From Eledone cirrhosa (lineage: Eukaryota): a stretch of 64,000 nucleotides of DNA. Shown in pieces: positions 1 to 60,391 of this stretch. The stretch's first letter is position 1. Each line of letters starts with the position of its first letter. The notes beneath the pieces were generated by a model. It ran no database searches. It was given only the letters and a program-made list of their open reading frames with translations, and had not been told where the DNA came from. A program made the translations under genes and the position numbers. The stretch spans positions 118,978,001 to 119,042,000 of the forward strand of contig OZ024743.1 in NCBI GenBank assembly GCA_964016885.1, in the 5' to 3' direction.

Positions 1-2927
1 AAACTACAAGAGGTCAAACATTTCTTCAACTAAATATTAACTTTATTATGTATTATCCAAATTCAAAATTCTAACTAGGTAAACACGGCGTATTGAAAAA
101 TTTCCTACCTCCTCCCTCCCGTCTACTCATTTTAGCTGTGTAAGCAAATCTTCTCTGATGTTCACATACATTGAAGTTTATAAACACGGAAGGGTGTTCT
201 TTGTTATTGACAAACACTGTTGTGTTTTTTGCAACTTTATACCATATTTATTTAGCTAATTCGAAAATCAGGTGGTAATTTCTTTCTCAAAACATTGGAA
301 ATATGTTTTCACTATATTTCATTGAAACAAGATTCAGTATTTTTTTTTTTCTGATCATTATTTTTCTTTTCTCCGAATCTTTAGTATCTGAATATGTAAT
401 AAAATGAAAATAAGATATATGCAATATGTGTTTGCATTGAATGACTATCTCGTTGCATTGAATAGAAGTGTAGGGGCGTGTAACACTTAATGTAATGCGA
501 TAATATGACTGGTATAGTTTTAAATATATGATCCGAGGATTCAAGACATTAATAAGTATGTTATGTATTAAGTAACTTCAGAACATTGACTAGAAAGATG
601 TCCAGTTAACGCTACCTAATAGACATATAACGAAAGTATTTCCAAAAATTTCAACAGATAATCTCAACCAAAAGCTGTGTTCTTCACAGATTAGCAATCA
701 AACGGAATGCTCATCAGTTAGTTTGCAGTTCCATCAACCTTATTACTTATTTACAATTTGCCAATCAAGTATCTTGGTCCAATAATACTCTTCTTGTCTA
801 ATATGTATGACTTCATCAAGGAGATTAGCTGGCACTCAAAACTTGTTTCAAAACATCGGTAGGGGTGCGAGTAAAGGAGGAATATATTCTCAGACAGAGA
901 ACCTGACTTGAACTCTTCTTAAAGTACCCATGAGCGAGCTGGAAATAATAAATGTACAATTATGTTCTCAGAATGATCTTCGAAATATTTTCAGCGCTTC
1001 GTCTACTATTATAATTCAGCCACATTTGTCTCTATTGTTTGTTAACTAAGATTTCAAACATAACCAAGAGTTTTACTGATAGTGAATCAACTTTTGGACA
1101 GAAGAGAAACGGTTATGTTAGTGATTCCCTGTTCTAAATAAAATATTTCGTGAAAGAAAAATTGGATTTGCTGAATGCGTCAAGAGAGTTAAGCTTTCTT
1201 AAATCTGAAAGAAAATAAATAATTCATACATAATCCTTCTTTGAATTCTTTCTCGTCAAAACGCAAGAATGTCAGAAGAAAGAAACCTCTATGCGGTCAA
1301 TCCACCTGCAAGAATTAACACCCAAATTACTCTTTTTCAAAGCCTACTGTCTTGCAAACTAAGTAAATTGGAAGCCTTCATTCCCTTATCTATATTTTCG
1401 TGTTCTTTCTTTTTCATTAAATATGAGTACAGTTGAAAACAAAATGTGAACGTTTGACCTTTTGCTCTAAATTAACATCGATTTTAATTTCTTATTTCTT
1501 ATAAGCTGATTGTTTTGTTTCTATCGTCAAACAGCTGGATTTACTATTGTTCATAATATACGAGAAATGACACCAAACATATGTATCATTAGTGTACTAC
1601 TCTGGTTTTGTGGCGTGGAAAGCGGGTTGAATATACCCATTCTCCTAGGACACCATCCTATCGAATCTAACTTAACCATATGCTCAAACATTTATGCTTC
1701 ATAACTAGGTTTAATGAATTATTTAAGATTATACTTGACAATAAGAAATAGAAAACGGCAAACATTTTGCAGTAGATTTGAACATAATCCACGAAAATGT
1801 CCTATAAGATATTTCCCTTCACCAAATACACAATTTTACAAAACGCGATAATATGGAAAATAGTATTCCATAAGAAGGATTTTAAAATAAATATCAGAAA
1901 TCAAACGTAATTTATATAACAACACACTGCTATAAAACTACCCTTGAATGAAACTTTGTAGGCGGAGCTAGTTAGGAATAGTCTAGTTTGCCATCGAATA
2001 GCTTTAAATAAGATTGATGCGTTTCTCCCGAAATTCTGAGATTTGTTAAACTACATAACAATTCCTCATCCACGCCACACAACCACCATCACCACCAGTA
2101 GCTCTCTAGAAAATAAATTAAGACTTCAGTTGTCCATCTACATAGTTTAAGGCCGACAGCTTATCTTGGAGTCACACATGCTTGAAGTCTGTTAAATACT
2201 GACACATTCATTATTGTTGATCTTTGAATTTTAACGACTCTAATGTCATAATTTTAACTCCGTCATTCTATTTCTGGCATATAATATTTCATAAGTTCAC
2301 ATTCCATTTACGCAAATATCCAATTAGATCCGATTCCATACGAAACAATACAATTGTTCTCATGCAGGTGAATATATCTATAGCTGAACAAAAGACGTAA
2401 TTCAAAATCAAAAGGTTTAATCAACAGCATTATAACTACTTCCGTCGAACCAGTGATGGGAATTTGTTCGTGTTCGCTAGTCCTACTGAAAATAGCACGT
2501 TTCCTCAAATCACAATCTGCCATTTGAAAGAAATTATGGACTTATCGGGTAATATAAATCTCCATGACCTCGCCGAGAAACAGCAGTTTTGGGTGCTTTT
2601 TACGGTTGTTGCTCCCTCTGCCAGACCCTCTGTGCACGAATCTTTCAAGTGGATCTTATTCCCATATGTATAACAATTAGGCTTTTTTGCTTTGCAGAAC
2701 CAGTGTAATTGTTTTCCTTTCTGTCATCTCTTGAATATAGCTCCAAAACAGTTTTGTGTCCGTCAGACAACATCAGGTCTCATTTCTCTACAGATCCCAC
2801 CCAACCATATGTTATTTCGTGTCACCTGTCTACCCAACACCTTCCCCAACTTTATTGCACCAATATTTTTCGGTTTAGACCCTTATTTTGCATCTCTTTA
2901 TATACTATGGCACCTGCAAATTATTAC

Positions 2928-2959
<32 letters not shown>

Positions 2960-3175
2960 GGGTGGTGGTTTGTCAGTATCGATAGAGCGTCAGACACCAG
3001 GCTTTGCAACATAGAGTTATTTCCCTTTGCGTGAGTTCAAATCCGCCGTGGTTGAATTTGCCTTTCATCCTTACGGGGTCGGTAAAATAAAGTACCAGTA
3101 ATGCCCTGGGATCAATTTAATTGATTTTCCCCTCCCCCAAAATTGCTGGCCTTGTGCCTATTATAGAAATGATTA
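2960..3175 (+). mobile_element. tRNA-derived SINE family 1 (Meta/MESC-like central domain)
   Basis: B box GAGTTCAAATCC, core GCCTTTCATCCTTACGGGGTCGGTAAAATAAAGTACCAG, 3' GCTGGCCTTGTGCCT..AGAAA. Sits in (ATT)n. Confidence 0.88.
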
Positions 3176-4094
3176 TCATTATTATTATTATGTTGCATTT
3201 CATTCATTTAACCACACTTCCACTACAGCACTGTCTGTGTTTTAGGTTACATTATTGATTATGTTGCTGAGATGAGATAACTGCATGAAATATTTGCTAA
3301 AACAAATATCTTGAGCTTTAGCTAATTCTAACTGGCTAGTAACTCACTCTTCGTTGATTGAAATAGCTATCGAATTTTTTCTCTATCTTCTCATCATATT
3401 TTAGTAGGAAAAATGATTTGAAAAAATTACCTTTGGATCGTAACTTCAAAGTTAAATGAATGGTTGTCTGAAAAGCTGTATAAATTATAATTAACTAATT
3501 AATTAATTAATTTACCGTAGACAAGTAGTTATACCACAATATTGATTTTTTTTTATGAAAAAATCTTCAAACGCATTGATTTTCACTGACTGTAAATAAA
3601 GCCCTATAGTTTTAGAGGATACGAGAGGAAATTGAATAAAAGTGACGTTTATGAAAATAATAAGTTCAATAGTGTTATACATAAAGGGGAATTGGCTTCA
3701 GATGAAAATCGAAACTGGGTTGCTTTTGTAGAGTAGCGCGAGCTCTAACTCTCAGATTATACCGTTCAATTAGAGATGTTCATATTGAATCAACAAATTG
3801 TAATAAACGCCCCCCTCCCCCCCATTTCAAATATATCAGCATTCGCCATTATTTTCTTCCTCAACTTTAGATTATCAGATGACAACATTTTTTTTTAAAC
3901 TTTCATTTTCAAGTCTCAGGCATTGGCAACTGGCCAAGCTTATAAAACGCTTTCAAAGATGTCTGATCGGTCATTTCAATAACTTCAGTACTATTTCATT
4001 CTGATATATATTTATCAAATGGCTAAATTGCGTTACCATATAAAAACGAACAAATTAAATATATACATCACCCACCCATTTATTGTTTTTCTTC

Positions 4095-4710
4095 ATCTAC
4101 TTAATCATGGAAAGGTCATGGAGGCAGAGTCCTTAAGCATGCATTCCAGCAGGTCCTATCAGAAATAATAGTCTCCAATTAATCCAGATGGATACCCAGT
4201 CGAATTTACACATATTATTCAACCATATTGCTGGGGTCTACCACTGGATCTCCTGCAAGTTGATTTTGCCCGTTAGATCTGTCCAGTGATACTTTCTTTA
4301 GACATTCTAACTACATGTCCATAGTATCGGAGATGTAATATCGCAATTCGCAGAAATAGCGGTTCTGCCAGGGGTGACACCCTGACCCCTATACTACACA
4401 CACTAGCGTGTAACGTTACACCAAAATTCCTGCGGAGGAGCCCCATTTCGGTCGCTTGTGATCGAATTCTTTCCGCCATTACCCAGAATTCCTGACTAAA
4501 GGCAAGAGTTGGCATGAATACTGAATTGAAGATAGCGTGTTTGGCTTTTGCACCTACCCTCCTTCTGATGCTCAAATGCTCCTGTTTTACAATTCTTAAT
4601 TCAGCCTCCGGCCTTTCATCACTCGTGAACACGGCCCAGAGATACTTGGACTTCTCTACCTGCTTCATTGGAACTTCATTCACATGAAGAGTGCACTGCA
4701 TAGGCTTTAA
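4095..4710 (-). mobile_element. RTE-clade LINE 3' fragment (family A)
   Basis: LHVNEVPMKQVEKSKYLWAVFTSD...IFNSVFMPTLAFSQEFWVM...ATEMGLLRRNFGVTL...EPLFLRI..LRYYGHVVRM, the typical post-RT region of RTE elements. Homologous to 16190-16800. Confidence 0.88.
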
Positions 4711-5582
4711 GCTTGAGGGGTGAGTGTACTGATTCCTATCGTGCAACATTCGCCCGTTATCAGGTGCATTTCAGAGATCAGCTTCTGCGAGTTACGTAAT
4801 ACCATTTATTTGATTATTTAATACGGGATTCCTCTACGATAGTTTAACAGCAAGGCAATGATCAATCCAAGGCTTCACTAGATGTCATTTGCCTAATAAG
4901 CAACAGATATGGGTCGAAACTGGAACAGCGAAATTGTGAAATGTGTCTTATTACAAATGATATTTATATCATCACTTCCTGTTCCATATTATATATTAAA
5001 CCATTCTAAAGTTTAAATTGTTAACCCCTTATCCGGAGATACGTCAAACATGATAAAATAGTGAGTTGTATGTTCTGAAAAATATATTAGAGACTATTAG
5101 ATCTTATAATAGTAGATCACTCAACAAATAGTAAAGAAAGAGATAATACTGATAGTAAAAAATAACAGAGTTTATTATGGATGGTAACAAAACCACCAGT
5201 AACAGCAACGAGTTTGGGAGGATAAAGGAAATGATTGCGATGAGATGATAAAGAAAAGTGATGTCAGTGATGAGAGAAACATACAGCTTTAAGAAAACAT
5301 TACATGTACTATATATATATGTGTGTGTGTACATGTGCGTGTGTATCATTATGTTTTCATTTGTTTTTCTTCGATTATTTTTTCACACTTCTTACTTTAA
5401 TTATGATATGCATAATATTTACTATTCTAGTAATACAGATGATAGTGATTAGGATGATAATCAGGGGCATGAATGTCTGTCATGAGCGTATTACGTTATT
5501 CTTTTGAATACTAACGGCGAACACCGGAAATATAAACGAGAATCTAAAAATGGAAACGAATACATGCATTCATTGTTTGATG

Positions 5583-5669
<87 letters not shown>

Positions 5670-5712
5670 ATATATACATATATATATATATATGTGTGTG
5701 TATATATATATA

Positions 5713-5745
<33 letters not shown>

Positions 5746-5882
5746 GCGTATATATATATATATATATGTGTATATATATATATATGTGTGTATATATATA
5801 TATTTGTGTGTGTGTATGTATATATATATATATGTGTCTGTATATATATATATATGTGTGTGTATATATATATATATATATA

Positions 5883-5919
<37 letters not shown>

Positions 5920-6134
5920 GATCGATCGACTTTCGTCAAATCGGACCGAGGAAACAATGTTTCCGTCGGTCTTTCCAATTGCTAATACTATCTATCGGTC
6001 GCAACTCCAGGTAGAATGAGCAACGTGAAATAAAGTGCCTTGCTCAAGGACATAACGCACCTGGTCCACGAATCGAACTCACAACCTCAAGATTGTGAAT
6101 CCAATTCTCTAACCACTCAGCCACACGCCTTCAC
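5920..6134 (-). mobile_element. tRNA-derived SINE family 2 (CORE-like domain), between TA arrays
   Basis: Minus strand: GGCGTGTGGCTGAGTGGTTAGAG (A box), GAGTTCGATTC (B box), TGTCCTTGAGCAAGGCACTTTATTTCACGTTGCTC. Confidence 0.82.
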
Positions 6135-6207
6135 ATATATATATATGTGTATATATATATATATGTATATGTATATATATATATATGTATATGTATATAT
6201 GTATATA

Positions 6208-6467
<260 letters not shown>

Positions 6468-6534
6468 TATATATATATATATACACATATATATATATAT
6501 ATATATACACATATATATATATATATATATACAC

Positions 6535-6607
<73 letters not shown>

Positions 6608-6949
6608 CTCCCGTTTGGCTCACAGAGGGTCTCTTCTTGCTTACATCCCACTCACGCTGGAGGTGTTTGTACCTTTCGCTCATGAATTCCATTCAGCTTA
6701 TATGCTGACCAGAACCACCATGTTGCTGGTTTATTTCCTTTCTTTGGTTTGCTTTTATCCTTCTATGTTGTTCACTTGTCCCCCTCGCTTTACGCGATTT
6801 ACTGGTTCCAATAAATTTTTTTAGTTATTGCTCGCACCAATCTGAGGTATATGATTTTTAATGGAATGTAATACCAATGATGGTTGGGAAATCACTGACG
6901 AAGGAGTATTTTTATCATATGTAACCTATGTGCAACCACGCAGTATCCT

Positions 6950-7065
<116 letters not shown>

Positions 7066-7118
7066 GTATATATATGTATATATATGTATATATATATATG
7101 TATGTATATATATATATG

Positions 7119-7152
<34 letters not shown>

Positions 7153-7220
7153 TATATGTATATGTATATATATATATATGTATATGTATATATGTATATG
7201 TATATATGTATATATATATG

Positions 7221-7427
<207 letters not shown>

Positions 7428-7450
7428 ATATATATATGTATATATATATG

Positions 7451-7485
<35 letters not shown>

Positions 7486-7492
7486 GTATATA

Positions 7493-7565
<73 letters not shown>

Positions 7566-7712
7566 GTATATATATATATGTATATATATATATGTATATA
7601 TATATATATGTATATGTATATATATATATGTATATATATATATATGTATATGTATATATATATATGTATATATATATATATGTATATGTATATATATATA
7701 TGTATATATATA

Positions 7713-7955
<243 letters not shown>

Positions 7956-7957
7956 GG

Positions 7958-7989
<32 letters not shown>

Positions 7990-8362
7990 GTATATATTTA
8001 TATATGTATATATATATATATATGTATATATATGTATATATATATGTATATATATGTATATGTATATATGTATATGTATATATGTATATATATATGTATA
8101 TATATATGTATATGTATATATTTATATATATATGTATATATGTATATATATATGTATATATATATGTATATATGTATATATATATGTATATATATATGTA
8201 TATATGTATATATATATATGTATATATGTATATGTATATATGTATATATATATATGTATATGTATATATGTATATATATATGTATATGTATATATATATA
8301 TATGTATATATATATATGTATATATGTATATATATATGTATATATATATGTATATATATATG

Positions 8363-8393
<31 letters not shown>

Positions 8394-8851
8394 GTATATA
8401 TATATGTATATATATATGTATATATATATGTATATATATATGTATATATATGTGTATATATATATGTATATATATATGTATATATATATGTATATATATA
8501 TATATATGTACATATATATGTATATATATATATGTATATATATATGTATATATATATGTATATATATATGTATATATATATGTATATATATAGATGTATA
8601 TATATATATGTATATAGATGTATATATATATATGTATATATATATATGTATATATATATATATGTATATATATATATGTATATATATATATATGTATATA
8701 TGTATATATATATATGTATATATATGTGTATATATATATGTGTATATATATATGTGTGTATATATATATATGTATATGTATGTATATGTATGTATATGTA
8801 TATATATGTATGTATATGTATATATATGTATATATATATATATGTATATAC

Positions 8852-8883
<32 letters not shown>

Positions 8884-8911
8884 GTATATACATATATATA
8901 TATGTATATAC

Positions 8912-8943
<32 letters not shown>

Positions 8944-8994
8944 GTATATACATATATGTATATATATATATATATGTATATATAAATATATATG

Positions 8995-9065
<71 letters not shown>

Positions 9066-9068
9066 GTA

Positions 9069-9116
<48 letters not shown>

Positions 9117-9300
9117 GATATATATATAGATATATATGTATAGATATATATGTATATATATATAGATATATATGTATATATATATGTATATATGTATATA
9201 TATAGATATATATATATAGATATATATGTATAGATATATATGTATATATATAGATATATATGTATATATATATGTATATATATATGTATATATATATATG

Positions 9301-9437
<137 letters not shown>

Positions 9438-9438
9438 G

Positions 9439-9495
<57 letters not shown>

Positions 9496-9540
9496 GTACA
9501 TATATATATATATATGTGTATATATATATATGTATGTATA

Positions 9541-9583
<43 letters not shown>

Positions 9584-9587
9584 GTAC

Positions 9588-9782
<195 letters not shown>

Positions 9783-9822
9783 TATATATATATATATATG
9801 TGCAGATATATATATATATATA

Positions 9823-9864
<42 letters not shown>

Positions 9865-9887
9865 CATATATATATATATATATGTAC

Positions 9888-10042
<155 letters not shown>

Positions 10043-10559
10043 CATATATATACATATATATATATATATGTACCTTTATATACATATATTTCGTTTCTGA
10101 ATTTGTTTAGCAAGATTCTTTATCTGAAATCGTGTGTTGAAACCGATATTGTTATACTTTGGGAGGGTCATGTTGCCAATAAGAAACACACGCACCAGTT
10201 GCTTTCACTTCAATTTATTATATATTTATAAATTTATAAATTTACAAATCTACAAACTTATAAATTTCTGGTTGGTTGGTTTGTTCCACAACCAGATAGT
10301 TGTTTATATATAGTCATAATCCTTTCGTCACACACTCTGTGACTGGGGATTCCTTTCTTTGTTTCTGTGCCTTTCCTTTCTTCTGTCCTGCGCCATTTTG
10401 TTTCTGTGTGTGTGTGTTGTGTGCTCAGTTTGCGCATGCGCCACATCCGGGTGTCTGTGTGTGTTTGTGTTCATTTATCTATTTGTTTATTTATTTATTT
10501 TATTTACATGTTGTTGGTTGGTTGTTTGTTCTATGTGTGTGTGTGTTTTCATTTTGTCC

Positions 10560-11492
10560 TTAATTGTAAGTTGTGATGTTGCTGTTCCACTCATATTTTC
10601 TATTTAATTTTGGTTGTAATTCTTTTATGCTTACTGCCTCTGTAATTTGCCTAAACATTGCATCTTTTCTGTGTGTGGATTCTATTTTTATTTCTATGTT
10701 CTCTAAATTACCCTTGTGTTCTATTTTAGCATGTTGGTAGAGTACAGATGATTCTTTATTATCTTGAAGGTCTCGCCAGTGTTCATTTATTCGTTCCCCT
10801 ATACTACGAGCTGTCTCACCTATGTACACTATATTTTTGTTTCTACATTGTCCTTCAGTACATCTTATGCTATACACTACATTTCTAGTTTTACAGTTAA
10901 TATGGGGGCTTATTTTACAGGTTATACAATTCTTATCTATACATGAGGGTCTTTGGAACGGGTATGTCTTGCTAATAAGTGTTTTTACGGAGGTACCAGG
11001 TCTTTCTACTATCTTAATATTGAGATTATGTTTCTTTAGGGCCCTTCTAAATTTGTAGGCTAGTTCGCCTCTAGGGGTTGTATTGATGAACATTACACTC
11101 TGGTATTTATTGCTATCATACCATGAGTTTATTCTATTGGCCTTGTTCTTAGTTCTTTCTATTCTATTCCAAAATTTGCTCCTATACAAGGGGCAGGTCC
11201 CATTTATGTCATTATTTACCATTTTTTCCCATTTGGTTCTGGCTCCTTTATACACTCTGATTCTATCTCTCTGATTGTAGCCAGAGAACTGCATACGGTG
11301 GATGAAGTGTTGTATGTGTCTCTCTAGTTCTTCGGGGTTGCACATGCGGGACACATTTCTCATCACCCGTACCAAATCCGCAATCAGTATGTTGATTTTG
11401 GTATGGTCCGAAATGGCCGAGTTTCGGTGGATCAGATGTTTGGAAGTCATGGGTTTGGCGTAATGGGAATGGAGGATTTGTTTTTGGTTGTA
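10560..11492 (-). CDS. Truncated PLE polyprotein: RT thumb/linker, Cys-rich linker and GIY-YIG endonuclease
   Basis: Uninterrupted frame: HYAKPMTS...RMQFSGY...PLYRSKFW...CIDKNCITC...NCKTRNVVYSIRC...VYIGETARSIGERINEH...HAKIEH...RQITEAV...LNRKYEW. The first 23 aa of the listed ORF (11493-11561) come from the inverted arm and are not genuine. The RT catalytic core is absent. Confidence 0.92.
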   Translation of the reverse strand, partial: YNQKQILHSHYAKPMTSKHLIHRNSAISDHTKINILIADLVRVMRNVSRMCNPEELERHIQHFIHRMQFSGYNQRDRIRVYKGARTKWEKMVNNDINGTCPLYRSKFWNRIERTKNKANRINSWYDSNKYQSVMFINTTPRGELAYKFRRALKKHNLNIKIVERPGTSVKTLISKTYPFQRPSCIDKNCITCKISPHINCKTRNVVYSIRCTEGQCRNKNIVYIGETARSIGERINEHWRDLQDNKESSVLYQHAKIEHKGNLENIEIKIESTHRKDAMFRQITEAVSIKELQPKLNRKYEWNSNITTYN

Positions 11493-11790
11493 AGAGGCAG
11501 TAAGCATAAAAGAATTACAACCAAAATTAAATAGAAAATATGAGTGGAACAGCACCATCACAACTTACAATTAAGGACAAAATGAAAACACACACACACA
11601 TAGAACAAACAACCAACCAACAACATGTAAATAAATAAATAAATAAATAAACAAATAGATAAATGAACACAAACACACACAGACACCCGGATGTGGCGCA
11701 TGCGCAAACTGAGCACACAACACACACACAGAAACAAAATGGCGTAGGACAGAAGAAAGGAAAGGCACAGAAACAAAGAAAGGAATCCCC

Positions 11791-11835
11791 AGTCACTGAA
11801 GAGGTCACAGAGTGTGTGACGAAAGGACTATGACT
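11791..11835 (+). ncRNA. Minimal type I hammerhead ribozyme in the PLE pseudo-LTR
   Basis: AGTCA-CTGAAGA-G-GTCAC(agagtgt)GTGAC-GAAA-ggac-TA-TGACT. Stem I AGTCA/TGACT and stem II GTCAC/GTGAC are perfect. The CUGANGA and GAAA cores are present, stem III is vestigial, and the cleavage triplet is CUA (cut after 11830). Confidence 0.85.
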
Positions 11836-11985
11836 ATATATAAACAACTATCTGGTTGTGGAACCAACCAACCAACCAGAAATTTATAAGTTTGTAGATT
11901 TATAAATTTATAAATATATAATAAATTGAAGTAAAAGCAACTGGTGCGTGTGTTTCTTATTGGCAACATGACCCTCCCAAAGTAT

Positions 11986-12052
<67 letters not shown>

Positions 12053-12220
12053 TATATATATATATATATATGTACATATATATATATATATATATGTACA
12101 TATATATATATATGTACATATATATATATATATGTATTTATATGTATATATATATATGTATATATATATGTATATATATGTATATGTATATATATGTATA
12201 CATATATATATATATGTATA

Positions 12221-14481
<2,261 letters not shown>

Positions 14482-14656
14482 ATACATATATATGTATGTA
14501 TATATATATATGTATGTATATATATATATATATATATAAGTATATATTTTTAATATAGAAATGGCTTCTACAGGACTAGAACTGTTTATGTATTGAGTAC
14601 CTTAATAGCTGTGGTTACCCCTGATTGGACCCGGGATACACTTATACATATTTATA

Positions 14657-14723
<67 letters not shown>

Positions 14724-14832
14724 GAGTGCATATATATATATATATATACGGTGCATGTGTGTAAAACAAATTCCTGCGGTAACTTATTCAAAGCTGAACA
14801 TTGTATATGGGCATGGATATATATTGCCGTAT

Positions 14833-14910
<78 letters not shown>

Positions 14911-15148
14911 AAAAGGAGGAATATATAAAGAGACAGAAAAACTAATGTGATGCATTGACCATTAGTCATTCCGTTCGAATGGAGAGAAGAAAGAAGAATG
15001 TTGGGGAGAGTAAAGCAGTTCATACTATGAAAATCCCGTGGCTTCAAAGTGGATAATTTAGTGGCAGCAGGAGATATGTGAAGGTATTTCAGTTAACAAG
15101 GGAATGTAATGCTGCCTGTATTGGAGATTCTTCCCTGCATTAAACACA

Positions 15149-15213
<65 letters not shown>

Positions 15214-15217
15214 TATA

Positions 15218-15289
<72 letters not shown>

Positions 15290-15448
15290 CATGTAAGTAT
15301 GAACATACATGTATGCATTTTGTATGCCTCTTTGTTTTCTAAACGCCATTAGCCTATCAGAAAATATATCTGAAATAGATATATAGCAATGTATTCATCC
15401 TTATTTAGTTATATGTGAATATATACATTATATGTATTTATATATGTA

Positions 15449-15529
<81 letters not shown>

Positions 15530-15654
15530 CATAGACCTTGTGTTCTTTGAGATAATGTTGACATTACCTGTCCCTTACTCAGCAGTAAGAATGAGCCTCG
15601 TGTATCACTCAGTATCTGTGAAACTTTAAGTAATGCAAAATTAAGTTAAGCGGC

Positions 15655-16835
15655 TGCTATGCTAAGTGCCTGGTAAAGAGATGCAGGGAAATTGTTGAGT
15701 CCAAGCTAGCTGATGAACAGTGTGTCTTTAGCCCCAGACGCAGGTCAGCCAACCAAATATTCACGCTGCCACAGGTCTATGAGATATCGTGTGAAAATTT
15801 GCCAAGAGCTATATTCTTGCTTTGTCGACCATGAAAAGGCATAAGACCGCGTTCCTCGGGACCTGCCGTGGAAGGTTCTGCAGGAGAATGGGACCGATGG
15901 TCAGCTCCTTGCTACCCTGAATTTTCTATACAAATGCCTGAGTGTTTATGTTCAGTTATATAGTGCTAAATCGAAATTCGCAAAGGGTGCGTACTGTCAC
16001 CGCTCCTGTTCATTATTTTCATGAACAGGATTGACATGCGCAGCCGAGTTGGAAGTGATATCATAACTGGCGGCTGTAAAATCGATCGACAGAATATGAT
16101 CTTCGACTTGCACACGATAAGTTTGGTGCCGAGTGCTGCATGGCTGGAATGAACAGCCCTGCGAAAACAGAGGCACTTGTCCTCACAAGGAAGCCAATGC
16201 AGTGCACTGTACATGTAAATGGAGTTCCACTGAAGCAGGTAGAGAAGTTCAAGGATCTCGGACCCTGCGTTCACGAGTGATGGAAGGCTAGAAGCTGAAT
16301 TATGTGCAAGAAATACAGGAGCTGGTGCAGTAATGTACGCGTTTCAGCATTCAGTAACCAGGAGAAGGGAGGTAGACGTAAAAGTCAAACTCAGACTTTT
16401 TATTTCGTTATTCTTGCTAATCCTTACCTATGGTCATGATGGAAAGAATGCGATCGCGTATACAAGCGGCTCAAGTGGGGTTCCACCGGGTGGTAAATGG
16501 AGTAACGTTATTGGAGAGAATGCGTAACTCGTGATCAGAGATTCACTCCTGTTTGAGCCGCTATTTCTCTGAATTGAGAGATCGCAGCTCCGATACAATG
16601 GGAATGTGGTCAGAATGTCTCAAAGATTCGCTGGACAGATGTTATGGCCAAATCCACCCGGTAGTACACCCAAGTGTAGAAACAGAGGAAGATGGGTGTA
16701 TAACATCCATAAGTTTGGCTGGTCTCGCTTGGGGAGAGTTAGAGACGGTTGCTTCTGACAGGACCCACTGGAAGTAGTGTTTGAGGACTTTGCTTTCACG
16801 ACCATCTCAAGAATAAATGAGCGAAAAAGAAGTAC
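15655..16835 (+). mobile_element. RTE-clade LINE fragment (family A), RT region to 3' end, with internal deletions
   Basis: EQCVF...NQIFTL, FVDHEKA*DRVPRDL, RKGCVLSPLLFIIFMNRI, LKQVEKFKDLG, ILTYGH. Many stops and frameshifts. Confidence 0.88.
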
Positions 16836-16914
16836 TAAACTCGCTACTACATGCATATATAGATATATCTATATACATATGTGTGGAGCGTGAGTGTGTG
16901 TGAGAGTATATGTG

Positions 16915-16958
<44 letters not shown>

Positions 16959-16973
16959 CATATACATACACAC

Positions 16974-17004
<31 letters not shown>

Positions 17005-17642
17005 TGCGTGTGTGTCTTTCGATGATGTCCGTCTGCTGCGAAAGATGTTCATGCCAACGAGATAGCAGATGAACCAGTGCTTTCGAACGAAATTTTTCGT
17101 AACATATATTCTGCCTGAATCGCAAATAAATGTATATCACTCTCACCATCCTATATTCTGTGATATCTTATGGATAGTGATGGTGTTGTTTTAAATTATA
17201 ATATAAAATAAACATTAAATAAATAAATAGCCCGACTCGCGGATATAGTCCCACGAATGAATAGATATGTTACCTTAAATAAAGATATTATCATTCTTGC
17301 GTTTGTAAAAATAATGAAACTAATATTATGTATTATTATCTCCATTTCTTTCCCCCTGTTTTATCTTTAGTTCTTCTATTATTTTTATGTAATAAAATGG
17401 TGCCTTGTGAAGTGAGGAAATTTGAAGTGTGTTTTATTAAGATCAAATCAGACAGAAAATTACAACGTATATACAAGTATCGACATCTCACGTATATATA
17501 TGTGGGTGTACAATACACACATGCATGCATAAAAACATTCTACTTTATTTGAACATCACAGTATTGAAACTGTATGTGAATACACACGCATACATATTTG
17601 TTTGCACTCCACATTATTGAAACCATTCGTGAATACACACCC

Positions 17643-17690
<48 letters not shown>

Positions 17691-17693
<3 letters not shown>

Positions 17694-17877
17694 CGAAGGA
17701 AGTGTGGTAAGCAACCAGGTGGGCCATAATGCACCATAATGCACTGAGGGTAGTAGAGTGGGTAATAGGAAACGAGTCAGGACCCCGACGGCTGAGCTCC
17801 GGGTCGTTACGACAGCTACTGTTCGGATCTAGCTGTCGAAACGGCCGGAGCTCAGCTGTCGGGGTCATGACTCTTTT

Positions 17878-17882
<5 letters not shown>
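17691..17882 (-). mobile_element. 'Hairpin + tail' element, copy 2
   Basis: Same tail in reverse orientation (17691-17764), hairpin 17765-17882, (TA)n on both sides. Confidence 0.8.
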
Positions 17883-17938
<56 letters not shown>

Positions 17939-17943
<5 letters not shown>

Positions 17944-18142
17944 CAGAGTTGACATTGCACTCAGTGCTCCTTTGGGAGCCCCTACATGGACACACTAGAA
18001 GAGGAAGACCAAGGTTAACATATGTTGATGCCCTAAGGACAGACACTGGTCTGTTGGAGATGCAGGATATGGCAGCGATAATGAGGGACAGAGGCCGCTG
18101 GAGAGAACTCGTCCATGGATCTCGGGAATTTTACCCGCCTTA
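17939..18142 (+). mobile_element. RTE-like LINE 3' end (family B), 5'-truncated, next to (TA)n, with a (TAGA)n tail
   Basis: HPELTLHSVLLWEPLHGHTRRGRPRLTYVDALRTDTG...RDRGRWRELV*. Near-identical to 44690-44893. Confidence 0.85.
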
Positions 18143-18199
18143 GATAGATAGATAGATAGATAGATATACGTGTGTGTGTAAACCCATACGTTTATGTTT

Positions 18200-18500
18200 T
18201 TATTTTGCAATATTCGTGAGGTGAAATTGTGTGTTGAAGCAGATATTGTTATATTGGAGGATGCTCACGTTGGCAAAAATGACAAACATACGCACTATTC
18301 GGTTTATATTTCAACTTGCTCATTAGTTATTAGTTATGACCTCCTCAATGACTATTTGTTCTTCTTACCTATGTCACCTCATCTTCCTGCTCCTATTTGG
18401 TTTCCTCAAACTTCTGCGCATGCGTTTTATTCTGTGACTGTGTGTTAGATTTTATTGGCAATTTTGGCAACATGTCCATCCCCAAATATAATATATATAT
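18200..18500 (-). mobile_element. Diverged solo pseudo-LTR related to the 10-12 kb PLE, with a short inverted terminal copy
   Basis: 18211-18290 (gtgaaattgtgtgttgaagcagatattgttatattggaggatgctcacgttggcaa) aligns with 10115-10180. It has the same TGCGCATGCG motif (about 18415-18424) and a decayed hammerhead core (minus strand agtca-ttgagga-ggtca, 18336-18354). 18455-18500 is an imperfect inverted copy of 18241-18288. Confidence 0.7.
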
Positions 18501-20382
18501 TCACACATATATACCCATGGCTGTTCATGTTTCCATTATTATGTGAATATGTACATGTTTGTGCTCTTGTATATGTATGTATGGGCTCTTGCGTGTGAGT
18601 GTCACTATGTGGGCGTATGTATGAGCTGTAATATGTATACGAATAGAGCTGGATTGAAAACGGCGAAAGGAGATTCATACGCATACGAAGACACCTAATT
18701 ACAGTGTTTTAATATTATACAGTGTACATTTATTAATATATACACACGCACATTCTTCCTTCCGATGTTCTCTCTCACACAGACGTGCGTGCACACACAC
18801 GGGCACACATAGTTACATTCGCACCCACAAACACAGGCACACATATTTACATTCACACACACCAACATAAGCACACATAGTTACATTCACACGCACAAAC
18901 ACTTGCTCTCTTTCTCTGACAAACACACACACACATACATACACACAAGCATACACGCGTAGGCAAACATGTCCTGCCCGCCTCTCATTGAACACACCAT
19001 ACAAATATGAAAATCACGGTCTAATCTCAACTTCTCGCCTCCCGCTGTCAGAGCTTGCCAATCACGTCCACGAGATGTGGTCGCGTTAATACAATAACAA
19101 GGCGACTGAATTAGATGCTGCTTATTTAATTTGCTTTCTAAAGGATGAGATGAGGTTGGCAACAATAAAAACATGGTGGATTTATTGCATTCATTGGTGA
19201 CTCTCTTGTTTAACAATCAATGTATGCCGCATTTCTGAGAGTCTATGTGTATGTGTAAGATTTGTATGCGTGCGTTTGTCTCTTTTTGTAGGATAAGGTT
19301 GTGCCAACTCATTGTTTGTACATCTGTATTTGTGAATATGCAGGCAGTCAGTTATGTGTATAAAGTTATATGCATGTGTATATGTTTAGATGTCCACGTA
19401 TGTGTATGTGCCTAACACTGTTATTCTTTAAATGCGTTTGTGACTTTGTTTTATTATGTATGGTAGAGTTGTGCCATAAATATGTGTGTATGAATGCATT
19501 TGGGTCGCCATGTTGTGTATGTTTGTTCCAGTTCATTTCATATGTATAATTGTGAATATATGCGAACATGCCTTCAATTATGTGTGTGTGTATGAGATAT
19601 AAGTGTGCATATATATTCCACTCTGTGTTTCTCTGTATGCGTTTGTGAATTTCTGTCTTTCTATAGAGAAATAGCCTATTTGTGTACAGTTATGTGTCCA
19701 TTGTACTTGTATGTGTATATATATATATATTTACAAGAATGTATTTGTGCATATTATTTGTGTTTCACACACCAAACACATCCCTTATACCTCTATCTCT
19801 TATATAGTCATATGCATATGTGTCAAGCCTAGATAGTTGATTTCATTCACAAACATATATACTCACACAATAAAAAATCATACACATGCAATCATACATA
19901 CTAACACACCTACATACACTGATACACTTATACACACTCAAAATATGTAGGAAAAATATATAAACCAAACACACAAAAAAAAAAAAGAATAAGAAAAAGC
20001 GTAATAAAATAAGTAGCAACTCTTAATGACATTATTCAATGATATGTATATGTCCTTGTCTAGTGAGGGAGAGGGGAAAGAGAGAGATCAGATCCACATA
20101 GAGTAACTTAACCTCTGTGGCGAGCGAAGACTCCAGGGAGGGTATATGTCCCCAACAGCTCCAATGTTAACACAGTTAACAGTTTCCTCCCTATCACTAC
20201 CGAGGGACCGAGGGAATATTTTTCATCCTTAACAGAGATTGTATGCAATAATAGCTAACCTTTAGCAATCCACTCTCGCCTATCAACAACAACTAACAAT
20301 AACACACAAATGATAAAAAGATGTGTGGTGATAGGAATTATGATAATGTAAAGTAATTGAAGAGGAAAACAAATCAGAGATA

Positions 20383-24258: not shown

Positions 24259-26443
24259 ACAGAAATTAAATGTTAGAGAAAACAATATCAAATTCTTGAA
24301 CAAATATATTTAATGACTGACAATTGTTTCGGGAATCATATCAGTATTCTTCACATACAGATGATAATTATCGATTATAAAATCGATAATCTGGCAATTT
24401 ACCCCCTACACAAGCTAAAGGAGAATTTAACCTCTCTGCAAGGAGACTTATACAGAAACGATGCTCTATTTACTGTAGATAACTTTAACGTACGTACAAT
24501 CGAGATTCTTAAGAAGTATTTGCATAATTTTTTTTTAAAAGCTTTGGTCTTTCTATCACAATTGAGCCTAACCATAAGGTACTCAATTTCCTTGACGCTA
24601 CTTTAGACTTTGATACAGGACTCTAACGTCCTTATCATAAACCTGGTGAAATCTTAACTAATAGTCTTTCCAATCCTCTATTCTTAAATCTATTGTAATG
24701 TCTATTTCACATAGAATCTCTAGGCTCTCTGCAAATGAGAACATATTTAGCGAAATAACGTGGTACTATAATGAGGCTCTTTCTAAATCAGGCTACAAGG
24801 ATAAGATTCATTACATACCTGCTGCTCTATCCACCCATGGATTAAATAATAATAATGTAATTGCACAGAGTTGTCTCTCTAGTAATAATAGATTTAAAAA
24901 CACTAATGGAAAGAACCGGTCTCCATATAGTGGTTTCCAACTTACTCTTAGCAATGAGTTCAGGATTATTTCTAATAGACACCTTAACCAAAAGCCTTCC
25001 TGTAATACTAAGAATTCACGCACTACTCCACGCGGAAATAGGTCTCATAATCCGTCCTGGTTTAATCCTCCGTTCTCCTATAATATAATATAACGTCTAA
25101 CCTCCCTAAAAGTTCTTCTCCATCTTACGCAACAATTTCCCTCCTAGCCATAAGTACTATAAATTATTTAACAAAAATGGCTGATTATATTGCTTTTAGT
25201 AGCCATAAGAAACATAGTGCCTCTCTTTCTGTTAACTTACCTCTGCCACTTAACCCTTTATATACGAATAATTCTAACATTAATAGTTATTCTTTTAACC
25301 CTCCTATCACCTCACCGTCGTATGATATGCCTACCAATTCTATACGTTTACCTACAATCTCTACCTCCTCAAACCGTAACTGTAAAAATCCTAACAACGG
25401 CCCTGTGAATGGTTAATGTCTTACTAATAGGGTAGTAAATAGATGCACTGTTAAAACCCATAATTTTTTCTACTTTAGGCACAAGGCCAGTAATTAACCA
25501 GTGCATTACTGGTACTTTATTTTATCAACCCCGTAAGGATATAAAGGCAACGTCAACCTCGGCAGGATTTGAACTCAGATCGTAAAGAGACGTAACTATG
25601 CTGGAAAGCATGGCGTCCGACCCTCTACTGATACTGCCAATCCACCGCCCCTAAAACCCATAATGACACTAGAACGTACATTGGAGCTACTGCTAATCCT
25701 TTCAAGACTCATTTTAATTCTCATAGACATTAATTTACGAATAGAAATTTTAAATGTTCTACTTCTTTAGCCAGACATATAAACACATTAAAACTCTCTA
25801 ATATTGAATACTCTTTATTCTGGGATTTCTTAGCTAAATTCTCTCCTTACAAAGGTTGTGAAGGGCATTGTGATCTCTGTTTATTGGAAGCCTTATTTCA
25901 TAACTATGTCTAAACCCAGCCCAATGAATGGTCGCAACGAGATTGTAATTAATTGCCATCATCGTTTGGCATACTCGTTCGCTAACAGGGATTTTGATTC
26001 CAATTAGATTCTGTTAGAAGAATTGACTATTTTTCTTTCCCTTTTTTTACTATTCCTTTTTAACCCACTACTCCTTCACATTCACATTTTAACCTTCACA
26101 TTTTAACTAGTTCAAATTTTCTTCCTAATTAATTTATATCCTATTTTTTTCTTTTTTAATATTTTATTTTTACCCATGCTATATTAATGCTATTTCTTTT
26201 TTCTTTTTACTTCCACTTATATTATTTTAATTTATAACCCTGATTCCGTGTCCCCTATACTCCTTTTAACTCACGCATTTTTACAATTATTTATAATACA
26301 CTTCCTATAATATCTATATTATTTCTATTTATTATTTCTATTTTAATATTAACTAAAACTACTTTGGCCTTTCTCCAGCTTTTATACACTCTATATTTGT
26401 TCAAGAATTTGGTATTGTTTTCTCTAACATTTAATTCCTCTGT
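24259..26443 (+). mobile_element. Decayed Penelope-like element (WFNPPFS type, possibly Hydra clade) with about 50-bp inverted ends and a nested SINE
   Basis: Frameshifted peptides: RPYHKPGE, SISHRISRLSANENIF..YYNEALSKSGY, SWFNPPFSYNI, HKYYKLFNKN, RCTVKTHN/DTRTYIGATANPFK (GIY-YIG), CDLCLLEALFI, RNEIVINCHHR. 24259-24308 is the reverse complement of 26392-26443. The element ends next to (TG)/(TA)n. Confidence 0.85.
25465..25651 (-). mobile_element. Full-length SINE family 1 with a 13-bp TSD, nested in the PLE endonuclease region
   Basis: TAAAACCCATAAT at 25452-25464 and 25652-25664. A-box-like TGGCAGTATCAG, B box and core are all present. Confidence 0.93.
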
Positions 26444-28879: not shown

Positions 28880-30245
28880 TATCATACTTCATATATATAC
28901 ATTGCAGTTGATAAAAATTTTACTAACGCAAATTTGCTTGATGTAAAGCTAGACCTAAGCACAGCTTATATATAACATACAAAACTTTTATAAAACATAA
29001 CGAAAAATTGAAATATATTAATAAACACTCACGCCACTCTGCTGATTTTGATGTTTAAATTAGTTTCTAATATTAGTCGTAGGATCTCAATCATATCAGT
29101 AGCCATGTAGATTTTTCAATGAGGCTACTAACGTCCCTAGTGCTTTAAGGGACAAAATTACGTACACACCCAATCATTTCCAACCCAACAATACTAAAGA
29201 TACTAACTGAAAAAGAAGAATTATATGGTTCGCACTCCCTTTTGCTTAAAGTAAATAATAATGTAGGTAAGAAGTTTTTAGATTTAATAAATAGACATTT
29301 ACCACCACAACATAGATACAGTAAAATATTCAAGTACAATTCCGTCAAGATATCCTATTCGTGTGAACCGCCTATGAGAACAGAAATTACTGCAAAGAAT
29401 ATATGCGACGTAAATCCAAGCTGCTCTTGCAGCATTAAAGTAATTACACACAGCAACACAGAAAATTCTGAAGTTAGCGAAAGCTACGTAGGCATGGTGT
29501 TCGATCGTTTTAAACAACGTTTTTACATGAATCTCCACTCCTTCAGGAATCCTGATATGAGAATCAGTGCAGCTTTTGCAAAAATAGACTAGCAATTAAA
29601 GGCGAAAGAAGACCCCAATAAGATTAGTTAGAAGATACTTGAAAGATTCAATCCTTAAAACGATAGTACCAAGAGATGCCGTTTCTGTCTCTGTGAGAAA
29701 TTTAGAATATTTCAAGGCTGGTCAACTAGAAACAATATTTATTTGAATTCAAAGATCGATATTTTTAGAGGATGGTTCCATCTGAAACCCCCAACTGTTT
29801 GCTAAGTGGAAATACTCAACAAATTCGACTCATCTTTAACGGCCTTAATTTGATTAATATACTTCCGATATTTCTTTTCATAATCTTTGTCTTTCTAAAC
29901 TTACATATAACAATTCACTTTCTGTACTAATCTCCTCTACACATTGAAATTATTATTCCACCACATAATACAATACTTCTCCTCTACAATATGAACACTA
30001 ACACGTGAACGATTTTGCCTTCCAAATTTACATCTTGCAGTTATTTCCTTTTGATATAATACATTTTGGGGGAAACTAGAATTTCTAGCATGCATTAAAT
30101 CTAACGGTATCTTACAAATTCAAATAGGCTCCTGAAGATAGGTCACAATTTTTATCCGCTTGTATTCTAGAGGCGTAACGAACATTGGATCTTGAAACCT
30201 TGTGTAGCGCTTTTGTTCCATGTATGAACATAAATAAATGATATA
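28880..30245 (+). mobile_element. Decayed Penelope-like element of the same broad type as 24.3-26.4 kb
   Basis: Peptides: NLLDVKLDL, NISRRISIIS, NNVGKKFLDLINRHLPPQHRYSKIFKYNSVKISYSCEP, SYVGM..RFKQRFY..HSFRN, KRCRFCLCEK. Multiple stops and frameshifts. The 3' UTR carries a hammerhead-like motif and is followed by (TA)n. Confidence 0.85.
30128..30210 (+). ncRNA. Degenerate type I hammerhead ribozyme in a PLE 3' UTR
   Basis: gctc-CTGAAGA-taggtc...(long loop)...gatctt-GAAAC-cttgt-GTA-gcgc. The cores are intact but the stems are imperfect. The position matches a pLTR. Confidence 0.55.
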
Positions 30246-44689: not shown

Positions 44690-45055
44690 CTAGGGCGGGT
44701 AAAATTCCCGAGATCCATGGACGAGTTCTCTCCAGTGGTATCTGTCCCTCATTATCGCTGCCATGTCCTGCGTCTCCAACGGACCAGTTTCTGTCCTTAG
44801 GGCATCAACATACGTTAACCTTGGTCTTCCTCTACCAGTGTGTCCATGTAGGGGCTCCCACGGGAGCACTGAGAGCAATGTCAACTCTGGATGTCGGTGA
44901 GCATGTCCAGCTAACCTCAGTCTCCTCTGTGTCACTTTTGAGCTGACTTTTGGGAGGCTCCCATACACCTCTGAGTTTTTCATCCTCAGTGTATACTGAT
45001 TAAGGTTCAGAGCCATCCTCAGCATACTCGTGTAACACCCATCCACCATCTGAGT
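44690..45055 (-). mobile_element. RTE-like LINE 3' end (family B), 5'-truncated, flanked by (TA)n
   Basis: [14 protein letters not shown]...RRLRLAGHAHRHPE...WEPLHGHTGRGRPRLTYVD. The frame is open to the stop. Confidence 0.87.
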
Positions 45056-45197
45056 GAGTTAATATATATATATATATACACATATATACATATATATATA
45101 TATACATACATATATATATATACATACATATATACATATATATATACATATACACACATATATATATACATATATACACACACATATATATATACAT

Positions 45198-51053: not shown

Positions 51054-52450
51054 CTGTGTGTGCCTGTGTGTAAGGAGGAGAGAGTGAGGGTAAGAAAAAG
51101 AACTACATATCACATTGTTCCTGAAATTATTTTTCATTGCGCATTCAAAGAATATTTCCTGTGTTTTATTTCTTCACCATGTTTTTTGGTTTTCTGTCTT
51201 TATGCGCGCCCATTTTCCCATATACGTTTCAAGTCAAAGTCAGCTACGGATATTTTGTTTGTTAATGCCTGTCGCTATCCTCCCTCGTACTATTACTATC
51301 CTTAATAGTGTTGTTTGTGTAATAGTTTTCTGTTGTAAGACACCAAACACGTTACAGTGCTAAAGAACATGTTTTTTTCAGACATAGTATTACTACATCG
51401 ACATTATCACGTGCATCCTGCAAAGATTGTTGAAGAAGTGTGGAGAGGGTTTGGGCTGATATTTCCGGCAAATCATACAACTGCGTAGTACATCAAGATA
51501 TTAATCAATGTCCACTCAAACATTTATGATTTCAAAGTGAACTCAGTGTGCTTGATTACTGTAAAATATTATAAACTTTAAATATACGCTATTTATATAT
51601 ACGTCTGTAGCACACACAGCGTGTGTGTGTGTGCTTGCGTATATATATTTCATAAACAGATATGTTGAGGTCGACATCTTTTCTTTTATACATGAAATGA
51701 AAAATATTATGGGATCACGCTATTTTTTTCCTTTTATCGGACGGTATGTGATTGTAGAATCCCTAGATTCATCATCAAATCTCTATACCTTAATGTTTAC
51801 AACTTGAGGGTGAGGTTATGTGTTCCTTTTTAATTTAAACAGCCTTAAAATAATTGTTATAAATATTACCTCCGAAACAGGAGTTCATATGTACAAATCT
51901 AACACCAAAATGTTAAATTATATCTTTAATATTTTGATTGACTACTATAATTAAAAAGCAACAGACACCAATGTTCCATCCTGAAGTGGAAGCCCTAAAG
52001 ATCTAGAAATATTGAAGATAAAATAGTAAACTACACCGTTCCGAACTATTAACTAGGAAATAATACCGAAATATGAATGAATTAAAAGATATATATAAAC
52101 TTCGTTTCTGAATTTATTTGCAAGTTTCTTCATGAGAAATAATGTGTTGAAACATTTGTTGTTATAATTTAGGAGCGTAATTCAGGCAATATAAACATAC
52201 GTAACAAAGGAGTTTCAGTAAGATTGAGTTATAAAATCTATTTATCGTTTGGGTTAGCCACAAACCATAAACAAGATGGAGCAACTGGGACAGAATCGAA
52301 GCCAAGAAGAAACACAGGAGGACAAACTCGTAAGTGAGAAGGCCATTCTAGGTGTGTCGAAAAAGCTTTCACAATTTAATAACTGTAAGTTTGGTAAACG
52401 TAACGATGAATATGTGTGTGTGTGTGTGCGTGTGTGTGTCTGTGTGTATG

Positions 52451-60296: not shown

Positions 60297-60345
60297 AATA
60301 TGTATACATATAACGCAAAGCATTTTTACAACACTCTACCCCTTC

Positions 60346-60390
<45 letters not shown>

Positions 60391-60391
<1 letters not shown>

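What the first reader, a model, noticed from the sequence alone, without database searches (positions are those of the whole stretch)
10310..11835. Young PLE whose two inverted pLTRs differ by loss of the hammerhead catalytic core
Seen: the right, inverted arm has an intact hammerhead at 11791-11835. The left arm, the true 3' UTR of the ORF, reads cagtcac|agagtgtgtgacgaaa on the minus strand (about 10311-10345). It lacks 12 nt (TGAAGAGGTCAC) between two GTCAC direct repeats, which removes the CUGAAGA core. Known: EN+ PLE pLTRs carry minimal hammerheads. Inference: the coding-strand transcript cannot self-cleave while a plus-strand transcript could. This may be a post-insertion microhomology deletion, possibly favoured if a host transcript runs on the minus strand, or integration from two different RNA templates.
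Basis: partly seen in the sequence, partly recalled or inferred. Interest (0 to 1): 0.75.

Follow-up and report, generated by a model that had tools for sequence, protein, structure and literature searches.

The report
Recurrent ribozyme deletion in dead retrotransposon
This is a broken copy of a common Penelope-type jumping gene in which one of two mirror-image ends has lost 12 letters of a predicted self-cutting RNA; the same loss turns up separately in eight of several thousand copies, so it is likely a harmless copying slip between two short repeats, not a regulatory switch.

Summary
Observation confirmed; interpretation mostly not supported. Window 10087-11993 is a 5'-truncated Penelope-like element (Neptune/Nematis type) with head-to-head arms in (TA)n. 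The right arm has a typical minimal hammerhead; the left lacks 12 nt between two GTCAC repeats. The deletion is real: 17 raw reads from one run match across it exactly. It is neither private nor a subfamily: 8 copies carry it against 4,882 intact, it needs 7 changes for 7 arms on the tree, and one origin is rejected (AU p=5e-5). Neighbouring 5-nt microhomologies delete at a similar rate (3 and 3-4 copies). The arms differ by 5/484, mostly by rare unlinked changes, so two different templates are not needed. No host exon was found, and read-through RNA is predicted to pair the arms, masking the ribozyme on either strand. Weak evidence (about 4.6:1) favours a slip during insertion over later decay. 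Inverted arms, a one-sided tail and the hammerhead are published PLE features; earlier scan notes on other families in this genome already proposed twin priming.

The parts
10087..10146 (-). 60-nt 'tail': continuation into the first codons of the element's ORF, present on this arm only; likely marks one of two reverse-transcription start points
   Evidence: reads [28 protein letters not shown] from 10171; tail on exactly one arm in 45 of 49 pairs
10146..10641 (-). Left arm: last ORF codons plus 3' pLTR
   Evidence: 94% over 511 columns to the right arm (blastn)
10311..10345 (-). Dead hammerhead: 12-nt microhomology deletion of the core at 10343/10344, plus C>T at 10319 (position 16.2)
   Evidence: raw reads
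10560..11492 (-). 5'-truncated ORF (about 309 aa): RT thumb region, CX4CxxC linker, GIY-YIG endonuclease with CCHH residues; no start codon, no RT catalytic core
   Evidence: 95% to family unit L038 positions 2841-4281
11492..11494 (.). Head-to-head junction of the two 5'-truncated copies (unit positions 2841 and 3691)
11493..11993 (+). Right arm: inverted copy of the last 26 codons plus pLTR, no tail
11791..11835 (+). Intact minimal type I hammerhead motif (extra G after A9, 6-bp helix II, palindromic helix III, predicted cut after A11830); cleavage not tested
   Evidence: 9,063 exact copies of the 23-nt core in the genome
6954..10086 (.). (TA)n-rich target tract, left flank; no TSD can be read
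11994..12405 (.). (TA)n-rich target tract, right flank

Best explanation
This is a dead, 5'-truncated copy of an abundant young Penelope-like retrotransposon whose left arm lost the hammerhead core, likely through a neutral polymerase slip from one GTCAC repeat to the other, 12 nt away. Shown: the anatomy, the deletion in raw reads, and its independent recurrence in 8 copies on different sequence backgrounds, 7 of them with an intact partner arm. Inferred: both arms were copied from one source RNA (or sibling RNAs of one locus) by two separately primed reverse-transcription passes from the two ends of a cut in (TA)n, starting 60 nt apart. Inferred, weakly: the slip happened in one of those passes (about 55%) rather than later in DNA replication or repair (about 45%). 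Predicted: the loss has no functional effect, because the motif needs a same-strand partner and read-through RNA would pair the two arms.
For: Recurrence: 8 of 22 shortened core alleles are this deletion, against 4,882 exact intact copies with the same flanks. On a tree of 123 arms the 7 deleted arms need 7 changes (bootstrap 7-7, shuffled mean 6.9); one clade is rejected, p-AU 5.45e-05. Background: next-door ACTAT repeats give 3 14-nt and 3-4 20-nt deletions among 43 hits. Same source: within-pair median 1.1% vs 4.2% between loci; this pair 5/484. Separate passes: tail on one arm in 45 of 49 pairs; either arm can be the longer; the deletion sits on the tailed arm in 4 pairs and the untailed arm in 3, never both. 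Timing: the 7 pairs with the deletion differ by 18/2,063 (0.87%); P=0.65 if age-independent, P=0.037 if proportional to age. L094 carries six short deletions but only 4 substitutions in 404 columns. No effect: arms pair at -1037 and -975 kcal/mol; hammerhead mutants of a lizard PLE still insert in vitro (PMC11167929, passages).
Against: The deletion is about twice as common as each control deletion (not significant), and I did not count the denominator for the control anchors. 7 of 8 deleted copies lie in pairs whose partner spans the hammerhead, against 37-38 of 100 intact copies (p=0.005, or 0.012 without the index locus, 0.036 at a 45% background). This post hoc excess is unexplained and could point to palindrome-driven DNA repair instead. 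Run X24 also holds 24 reads with T10319 and an intact core; if they are an allele of this locus, the deletion came after insertion. The age test rests on 7 pairs and a fitted gamma prior from 26 pairs, and gene conversion between arms would bias it. No RNA was available.
Confidence: 0.82

Rival explanations
1. Post-insertion deletion in DNA (replication slippage or microhomology-mediated repair), promoted by the long inverted repeat; neutral. Same verdict as the best explanation, different timing.
For: 7 of 8 deleted copies are in hammerhead-spanning inverted pairs vs 37-38 of 100; 4 of 8 are in short near-perfect palindromes (L002, L005, L007, L132). Microhomology deletions disabling Penelope copies were reported in Adineta vaga and ascribed to DNA repair (PMC3846280, passages). 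Reads with T10319 and an intact core exist in X24.
Against: Deleted pairs are no older than other pairs; 3 of 7 have zero substitutions between arms; P=0.037 under age-proportional accumulation. T10319 occurs at 14 other places, which can supply those reads.
Confidence: 0.37
2. Host selection removed an active ribozyme from the strand of a host transcript.
For: The left arm has two hammerhead lesions (deletion and C>T at 16.2), the right arm none.
Against: No host exon found (three weak zinc-transport hits below cutoff, which I read as low-complexity artefacts); arms predicted to pair in read-through RNA; single minimal hammerheads of a schistosome PLE showed no detectable cleavage in vitro (PMC4209133, parts 1-2 read); thousands of intact copies persist; no pile-up of copy ends at the cut site (3 true junctions of 12 hits, control up to 4).
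Confidence: 0.06
3. The two arms came from two different RNA templates, one from a ribozyme-less subfamily.
For: The arms differ by 5 substitutions and 4 indels; the nearest tree neighbours of the left arm include L033, sharing C10390 (92/77 support, one site).
Against: Deleted copies are polyphyletic; no other copy among 154 arms shares two of the left arm's variants; 1.0% lies inside the within-pair range (unbiased 26 pairs: 0-4.4%).
Confidence: 0.04
4. Assembly error in a palindromic region.
For: Long inverted repeats and (TA)n tracts are hard to assemble; 7 of 8 cases are in inverted pairs; Logan contigs X1-X4 show no piece across the junction (contigs drop rare variants).
Against: 17 or more exact raw reads across the junction with the linked variant. 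The other 7 loci were not checked in reads.
Confidence: 0.02

Closest known systems
Canonical C-terminal EN+ Penelope-like elements with a Zn-finger linker (Neptune/Nematis type; PMC8557442, passages read)
   Same: RT then CX2-5CxxC linker then GIY-YIG with CCHH; heavy 5' truncation; partial tandems (4,084-bp unit in L038/L039); inverted 5'-truncated copy at the 5' end; tail on one end only; microsatellite targeting.
   Different: Tail is 60 nt, against 30-40 bp in the paper. Neptune versus Nematis not resolved (no reference sequences on hand).
Minimal type I hammerheads in metazoan pLTRs (PMC4209133, parts 1-2 of 4 read)
   Same: [quoted passage not shown]
   Different: The passages read do not describe one-arm core deletions; activity of this motif is untested.
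Adineta vaga Penelope insertions with inverted pLTRs (PMC3846280, passages read)
   Same: Head-to-head inverted pLTR, optional tail that extends into the ORF start, microhomology-mediated deletions in many copies, an Inr-like TCACT in the pLTR.
   Different: That paper favours self-priming for the inversions and DNA repair for the deletions; the one-arm, either-arm pattern here fits two separate passes better, if the slip is at insertion.
PAc Poseidon in vitro system (PMC11167929, passages read)
   Same: Internal RT initiation inside the ORF start giving the tail; both DNA strands cleaved and extended; hammerhead cleavage dispensable for insertion; no read ends at the cut site.
   Different: Different clade (no Zn linker); there the ORF starts inside the hammerhead, here the ATG lies about 140 nt downstream of the cut site.

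Membership tests
EN+ Penelope-like element | PLE-type RT in a single ORF | tested here: met
   Longer family copies hit RVT_1 weakly (E 6e-4, below cutoff) and show YVDD; the window copy lacks this part; weak profile hits to solved RTs. No RT phylogeny was run.
EN+ Penelope-like element | C-terminal GIY-YIG endonuclease with CCHH | tested here: met
   Y206..YIG224, E-H236, H253/H258, C199, C210; Pfam GIY-YIG hit in 1 of 8 aligned proteins (E 0.0076), none for the window protein itself.
EN+ Penelope-like element | pLTRs from partial tandem or inverted copies; tail on one end | tested here: met
   (45 of 49 pairs)
Neptune/Nematis type | CX2-5CxxC linker between RT and EN | tested here: met
   CIDKNCITC at 183-191, three Cys invariant in 8 of 8 aligned proteins
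Neptune versus Nematis | Placement in the RT phylogeny | not testable with these tools
   No named reference sequences returned
Hydra / Naiad clades | Hydra: no CCHH, CxCX5C linker; Naiad: N-terminal EN | tested here: not met
   CCHH residues and CX4CxxC present, EN is C-terminal (definitions)
Minimal type I hammerhead (right arm) | CUGANGA and GAAA cores, helices I-II, NUH, palindromic helix III | tested here: met
   helices I+II evaluate at -11.5 kcal/mol vs MFE -12.1; the monomer helix III (2-nt loop) cannot be formed in the model; Rfam gave no hit
Minimal type I hammerhead (right arm) | Self-cleavage as monomer or dimer | not testable with these tools
   Bench test. Indirect sign absent: no excess of copy 5' ends at the cut site. 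A partial dimer model (-22.3) is less stable than the cofold MFE (-31.4).
Minimal type I hammerhead (left arm) | CUGANGA core | tested here: not met
Ribozyme-less subfamily | Deleted copies form one clade with shared variants | tested here: not met

The most novel reading that the evidence does not exclude
The deletion is a fossil reverse-transcriptase slip made during insertion, and so a natural tracer of how Penelope inverted insertions form: it falls on one arm only in 7 of 7 pairs, on either the tailed (4) or the untailed (3) arm, while the arms are otherwise near-identical. Each arm is then made by its own RT pass over the same uncut RNA from two start points 60 nt apart, not by fold-back copying of one arm.
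Probability: 0.35. Interest if true: 0.45.

Novelty: new member of a known kind. Interest (0 to 1): 0.2.

Why it matters
As posed it matters little: one dead copy among thousands, with a small deletion at about background rate. The family statistics have some value: how PLEs build tandem and inverted insertions is stated as open in PMC8557442, and this young family gives countable marks (one-sided tail in 45 of 49 pairs, one-arm slips, no copy ends at the ribozyme cut site) that an in vitro PLE system could test.

Tried and rejected
Rfam scans of 5000-20000 and 11540-11990 gave only microsatellite-driven or chance hits and no hammerhead. A DNA search of the own genome with 11740-11900 returned nothing because common words are skipped; patterns were used instead. 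Repeat finder output was swamped by (TA)n. Pfam on the window ORF: no hit above cutoff. Hi-C runs X21 and X22 laid no read (1-2% of each run read; no test), and Logan contigs X1-X4 did not span the junction. Cut-site signature: 12 hits, 9 of them a 1-nt deletion of A11830, 3 true junctions; control position up to 4 hits (not opened), so no enrichment. Multiple-alignment distances over-count substitutions (10 vs 5 for this pair), so ages use pairwise counts; the age background dropped pairs with under 150 columns, loci L098-L112 (chosen for a variant) and L057, L077, leaving 26. Look-ups of earlier findings by sequence and nearby place gave nothing. Literature: four searches found no paper on one-arm hammerhead deletions in PLE pairs; subscription papers are not covered, the bioRxiv preprint 10.64898/2026.07.22.740005 was read only as passages, and no supplements were opened, so the family may already sit in Repbase or in supplement S1 of PMC8557442.

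Full report
Verdict. The feature is an ordinary dead copy of an abundant Penelope-like element with a small recurrent deletion; the proposed strand-specific or two-template meaning is not supported.

Observation. The two arms align with 5 substitutions and 4 indels (5/484). The right arm holds a minimal type I hammerhead: helix I 11791-11795/11831-11835, C3 at 11796, an extra G after A9, a 6-bp helix II, GAAA at 11821, palindromic AG-GA-CU, predicted cut after A11830. These match the features listed for metazoan PLE hammerheads in PMC4209133 (parts 1-2 read). Rfam has no model that detects it. The left arm lacks 12 nt between two GTCAC repeats and also has C>T at 10319. Raw reads support the deletion: in RAD run X24, 52 reads were laid at 100% on 10312-10366, with depth 17-22 beyond the junction, and 24 more diverged there into an intact core; depth was 11 or more from 10295 to 10400. 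Only this locus has both the deletion and T10319 in the assembly.

What the element is. A 334-codon open frame on the minus strand, of which about 309 codons belong to the element, ends in a CX4CxxC linker and a GIY-YIG domain with CCHH residues. Homologue search gave 26 longer proteins, 24-66% identical; the only named one is an Octopus vulgaris RT-domain protein at 63%. A tandem unit of 4,084 bp was found at L038/L039; the window copy covers unit positions 2841-4281 on the minus strand and 3691-4187 on the plus strand, joined head to head at 11492/11493. It has no start codon and no RT core. By the definitions in PMC8557442 (passages) it is Neptune/Nematis-type, not Hydra or Naiad; Neptune versus Nematis is unresolved.

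Is the deletion private or a subfamily? Neither. The 23-nt intact core has 9,063 exact copies, the 42-nt form 4,882. Of 22 shortened alleles between the same flanks, 8 are this deletion (7 exact, plus L132 with one substitution), about 0.16%. On a tree of 123 arms (those of 154 with at least 225 nt and the helix II anchor) the 7 deleted arms need 7 changes, and one clade is rejected (p-AU 5.45e-05). Four of them group with their own intact partner arm. The tree has few well-supported branches; starred branches alone force 3 changes.

Is it more frequent than chance slips? Not clearly. Among 43 shortened alleles just downstream, the ACTAT repeats give 3 14-nt and 3-4 20-nt deletions and the GACTAT repeat 1 clear 6-nt deletion; most other hits look like an older sister family. 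8 vs 3 gives p=0.23, 8 vs 4 p=0.39. The control denominator was not counted.

One template or two? In 40 pairs with at least 150 columns the arms differ by a median 1.1%, against 4.2% between loci by the same method. In pairwise counts, 26 unbiased pairs range from 0 to 4.4%, 8 at zero; this pair, at 1.0%, is middle-aged. Of its five differences, two occur in no other sampled arm, two in one other arm each, and T10319 at 14 other places, never with another left-arm variant. So both arms trace to one source sequence. The 60-nt tail lies on exactly one arm in 45 of 49 pairs and either arm may be the longer. I infer two separately primed passes starting 60 nt apart, which fits the in vitro finding that a PLE protein cleaves and extends both strands and starts inside the ORF (PMC11167929, passages). 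Earlier scan notes proposed the same for other families in this genome (unchecked notes, not support).

When did it happen? In the 7 deleted loci with a partner arm, arms differ by 18/2,063 (0.87%). Under a gamma age prior fitted to 26 pairs, P(at most this) is 0.65 if deletion is independent of age and 0.037 if proportional to it; the density ratio is about 4.6:1. L094, unpaired, has six short deletions and only 4 substitutions in 404 columns. The deletion is on the tailed arm in 4 pairs, the untailed in 3, never both. Against this: deleted copies are over-represented in hammerhead-spanning pairs, 7 of 8 vs 37-38 of 100 (p=0.012 without the index locus, post hoc; about 20 background arms had only 1.5 kb read upstream), which suits palindrome-driven repair; X24 reads with T10319 and an intact core could be an allele of this locus; and PMC3846280 ascribes such deletions to DNA repair (passages). 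I put it at 55:45 for a slip at insertion.

Does it matter for RNA? Probably not. No host exon was found among 120 window ORF segments (of 219 listed), though short exons would be missed. No usable RNA run exists. A read-through RNA of either strand is predicted to pair the arms (-1037 and -975 kcal/mol), with 32 of 45 hammerhead nucleotides bound to the other arm. Minimal hammerheads need a same-strand partner and cleave poorly (PMC4209133). Every arm that spans the motif was copied from RNA continuous across the cut site, and copy 5' ends do not pile up there: 3 true junctions of 12 hits, control position up to 4.

Novelty. Inverted arms, one-sided tail, (TA)n targeting, minimal hammerheads and microhomology deletions are all published for PLEs. 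Four searches found no report of one-arm core deletions, within an open-access library. The boldest reading left open is that the deletion is an RT slip that traces two independent passes per insertion (probability 0.35). Overall interest 0.2.

Noticed in passing
family-wide; window equivalent 11795-11798: Copy 5' ends pile up at the first bases of the hammerhead core: 19 of 22 pattern hits at C3 are true junctions (17 after collapsing two duplicate pairs) vs 3 at the cut site and up to 4 at a control position; 6 of 168 sampled arms start in these 4 nt. It overlaps an Inr-like TCACT, so it may be a second transcription start that leaves the upstream ribozyme without helix I, or an RT stop.
   Followed up: partly
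family-wide; window equivalent 11723-11740: Main hot spot of 5' ends: 32 of 168 sampled arms start here, several with a G just before an A start; possibly the pLTR transcription start with a copied cap (sample includes loci chosen by variant).
   Followed up: partly
family-wide; window 10087-10146 vs 11993: Strict 60-nt asymmetry: 45 of 49 head-to-head pairs carry the tail on exactly one arm.
   Followed up: yes
L135-L146 (window equivalent 11830): The nucleotide at the predicted cut site (A11830) is deleted alone in 9 copies genome-wide, compared with 1-3 copies for single-base losses within the core. Could be a scar of cut-and-rejoined RNA, or chance; patterns differ, so not directly comparable.
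   Followed up: no
L094:906-1400 (G000:C1): A deleted-core copy with six short deletions (3-49 nt) in 500 nt and almost no substitutions.
   Followed up: partly
window 52101-52201 and 18189-18295: Diverged (75-78%) matches to the tail and ORF-start region: ends of older related PLE families.
   Followed up: no
window 24665-25090 (+) and 29149-29589 (+): ORF fragments that look by eye like RT-thumb and GIY-YIG parts of another PLE family; no Pfam hit; the label is from recall.
   Followed up: no
window 4276-4770 (-), 15969-16343, 17871-18140 (+), 44693-45058 (-), 60099-60590 (+): Fragments resembling C-termini of LINE-type retrotransposons; label from recall, no Pfam hit.
   Followed up: no
G000, one search hits: An older sister family with the same helix II and GAAAG but a changed helix I 3' strand (ACTTTGAC) shares the anchors; useful for a covariation test of the hammerhead.
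   Followed up: no
window 6954-10086: A 3.1-kb (TA)n-rich tract directly left of the element.
   Followed up: no
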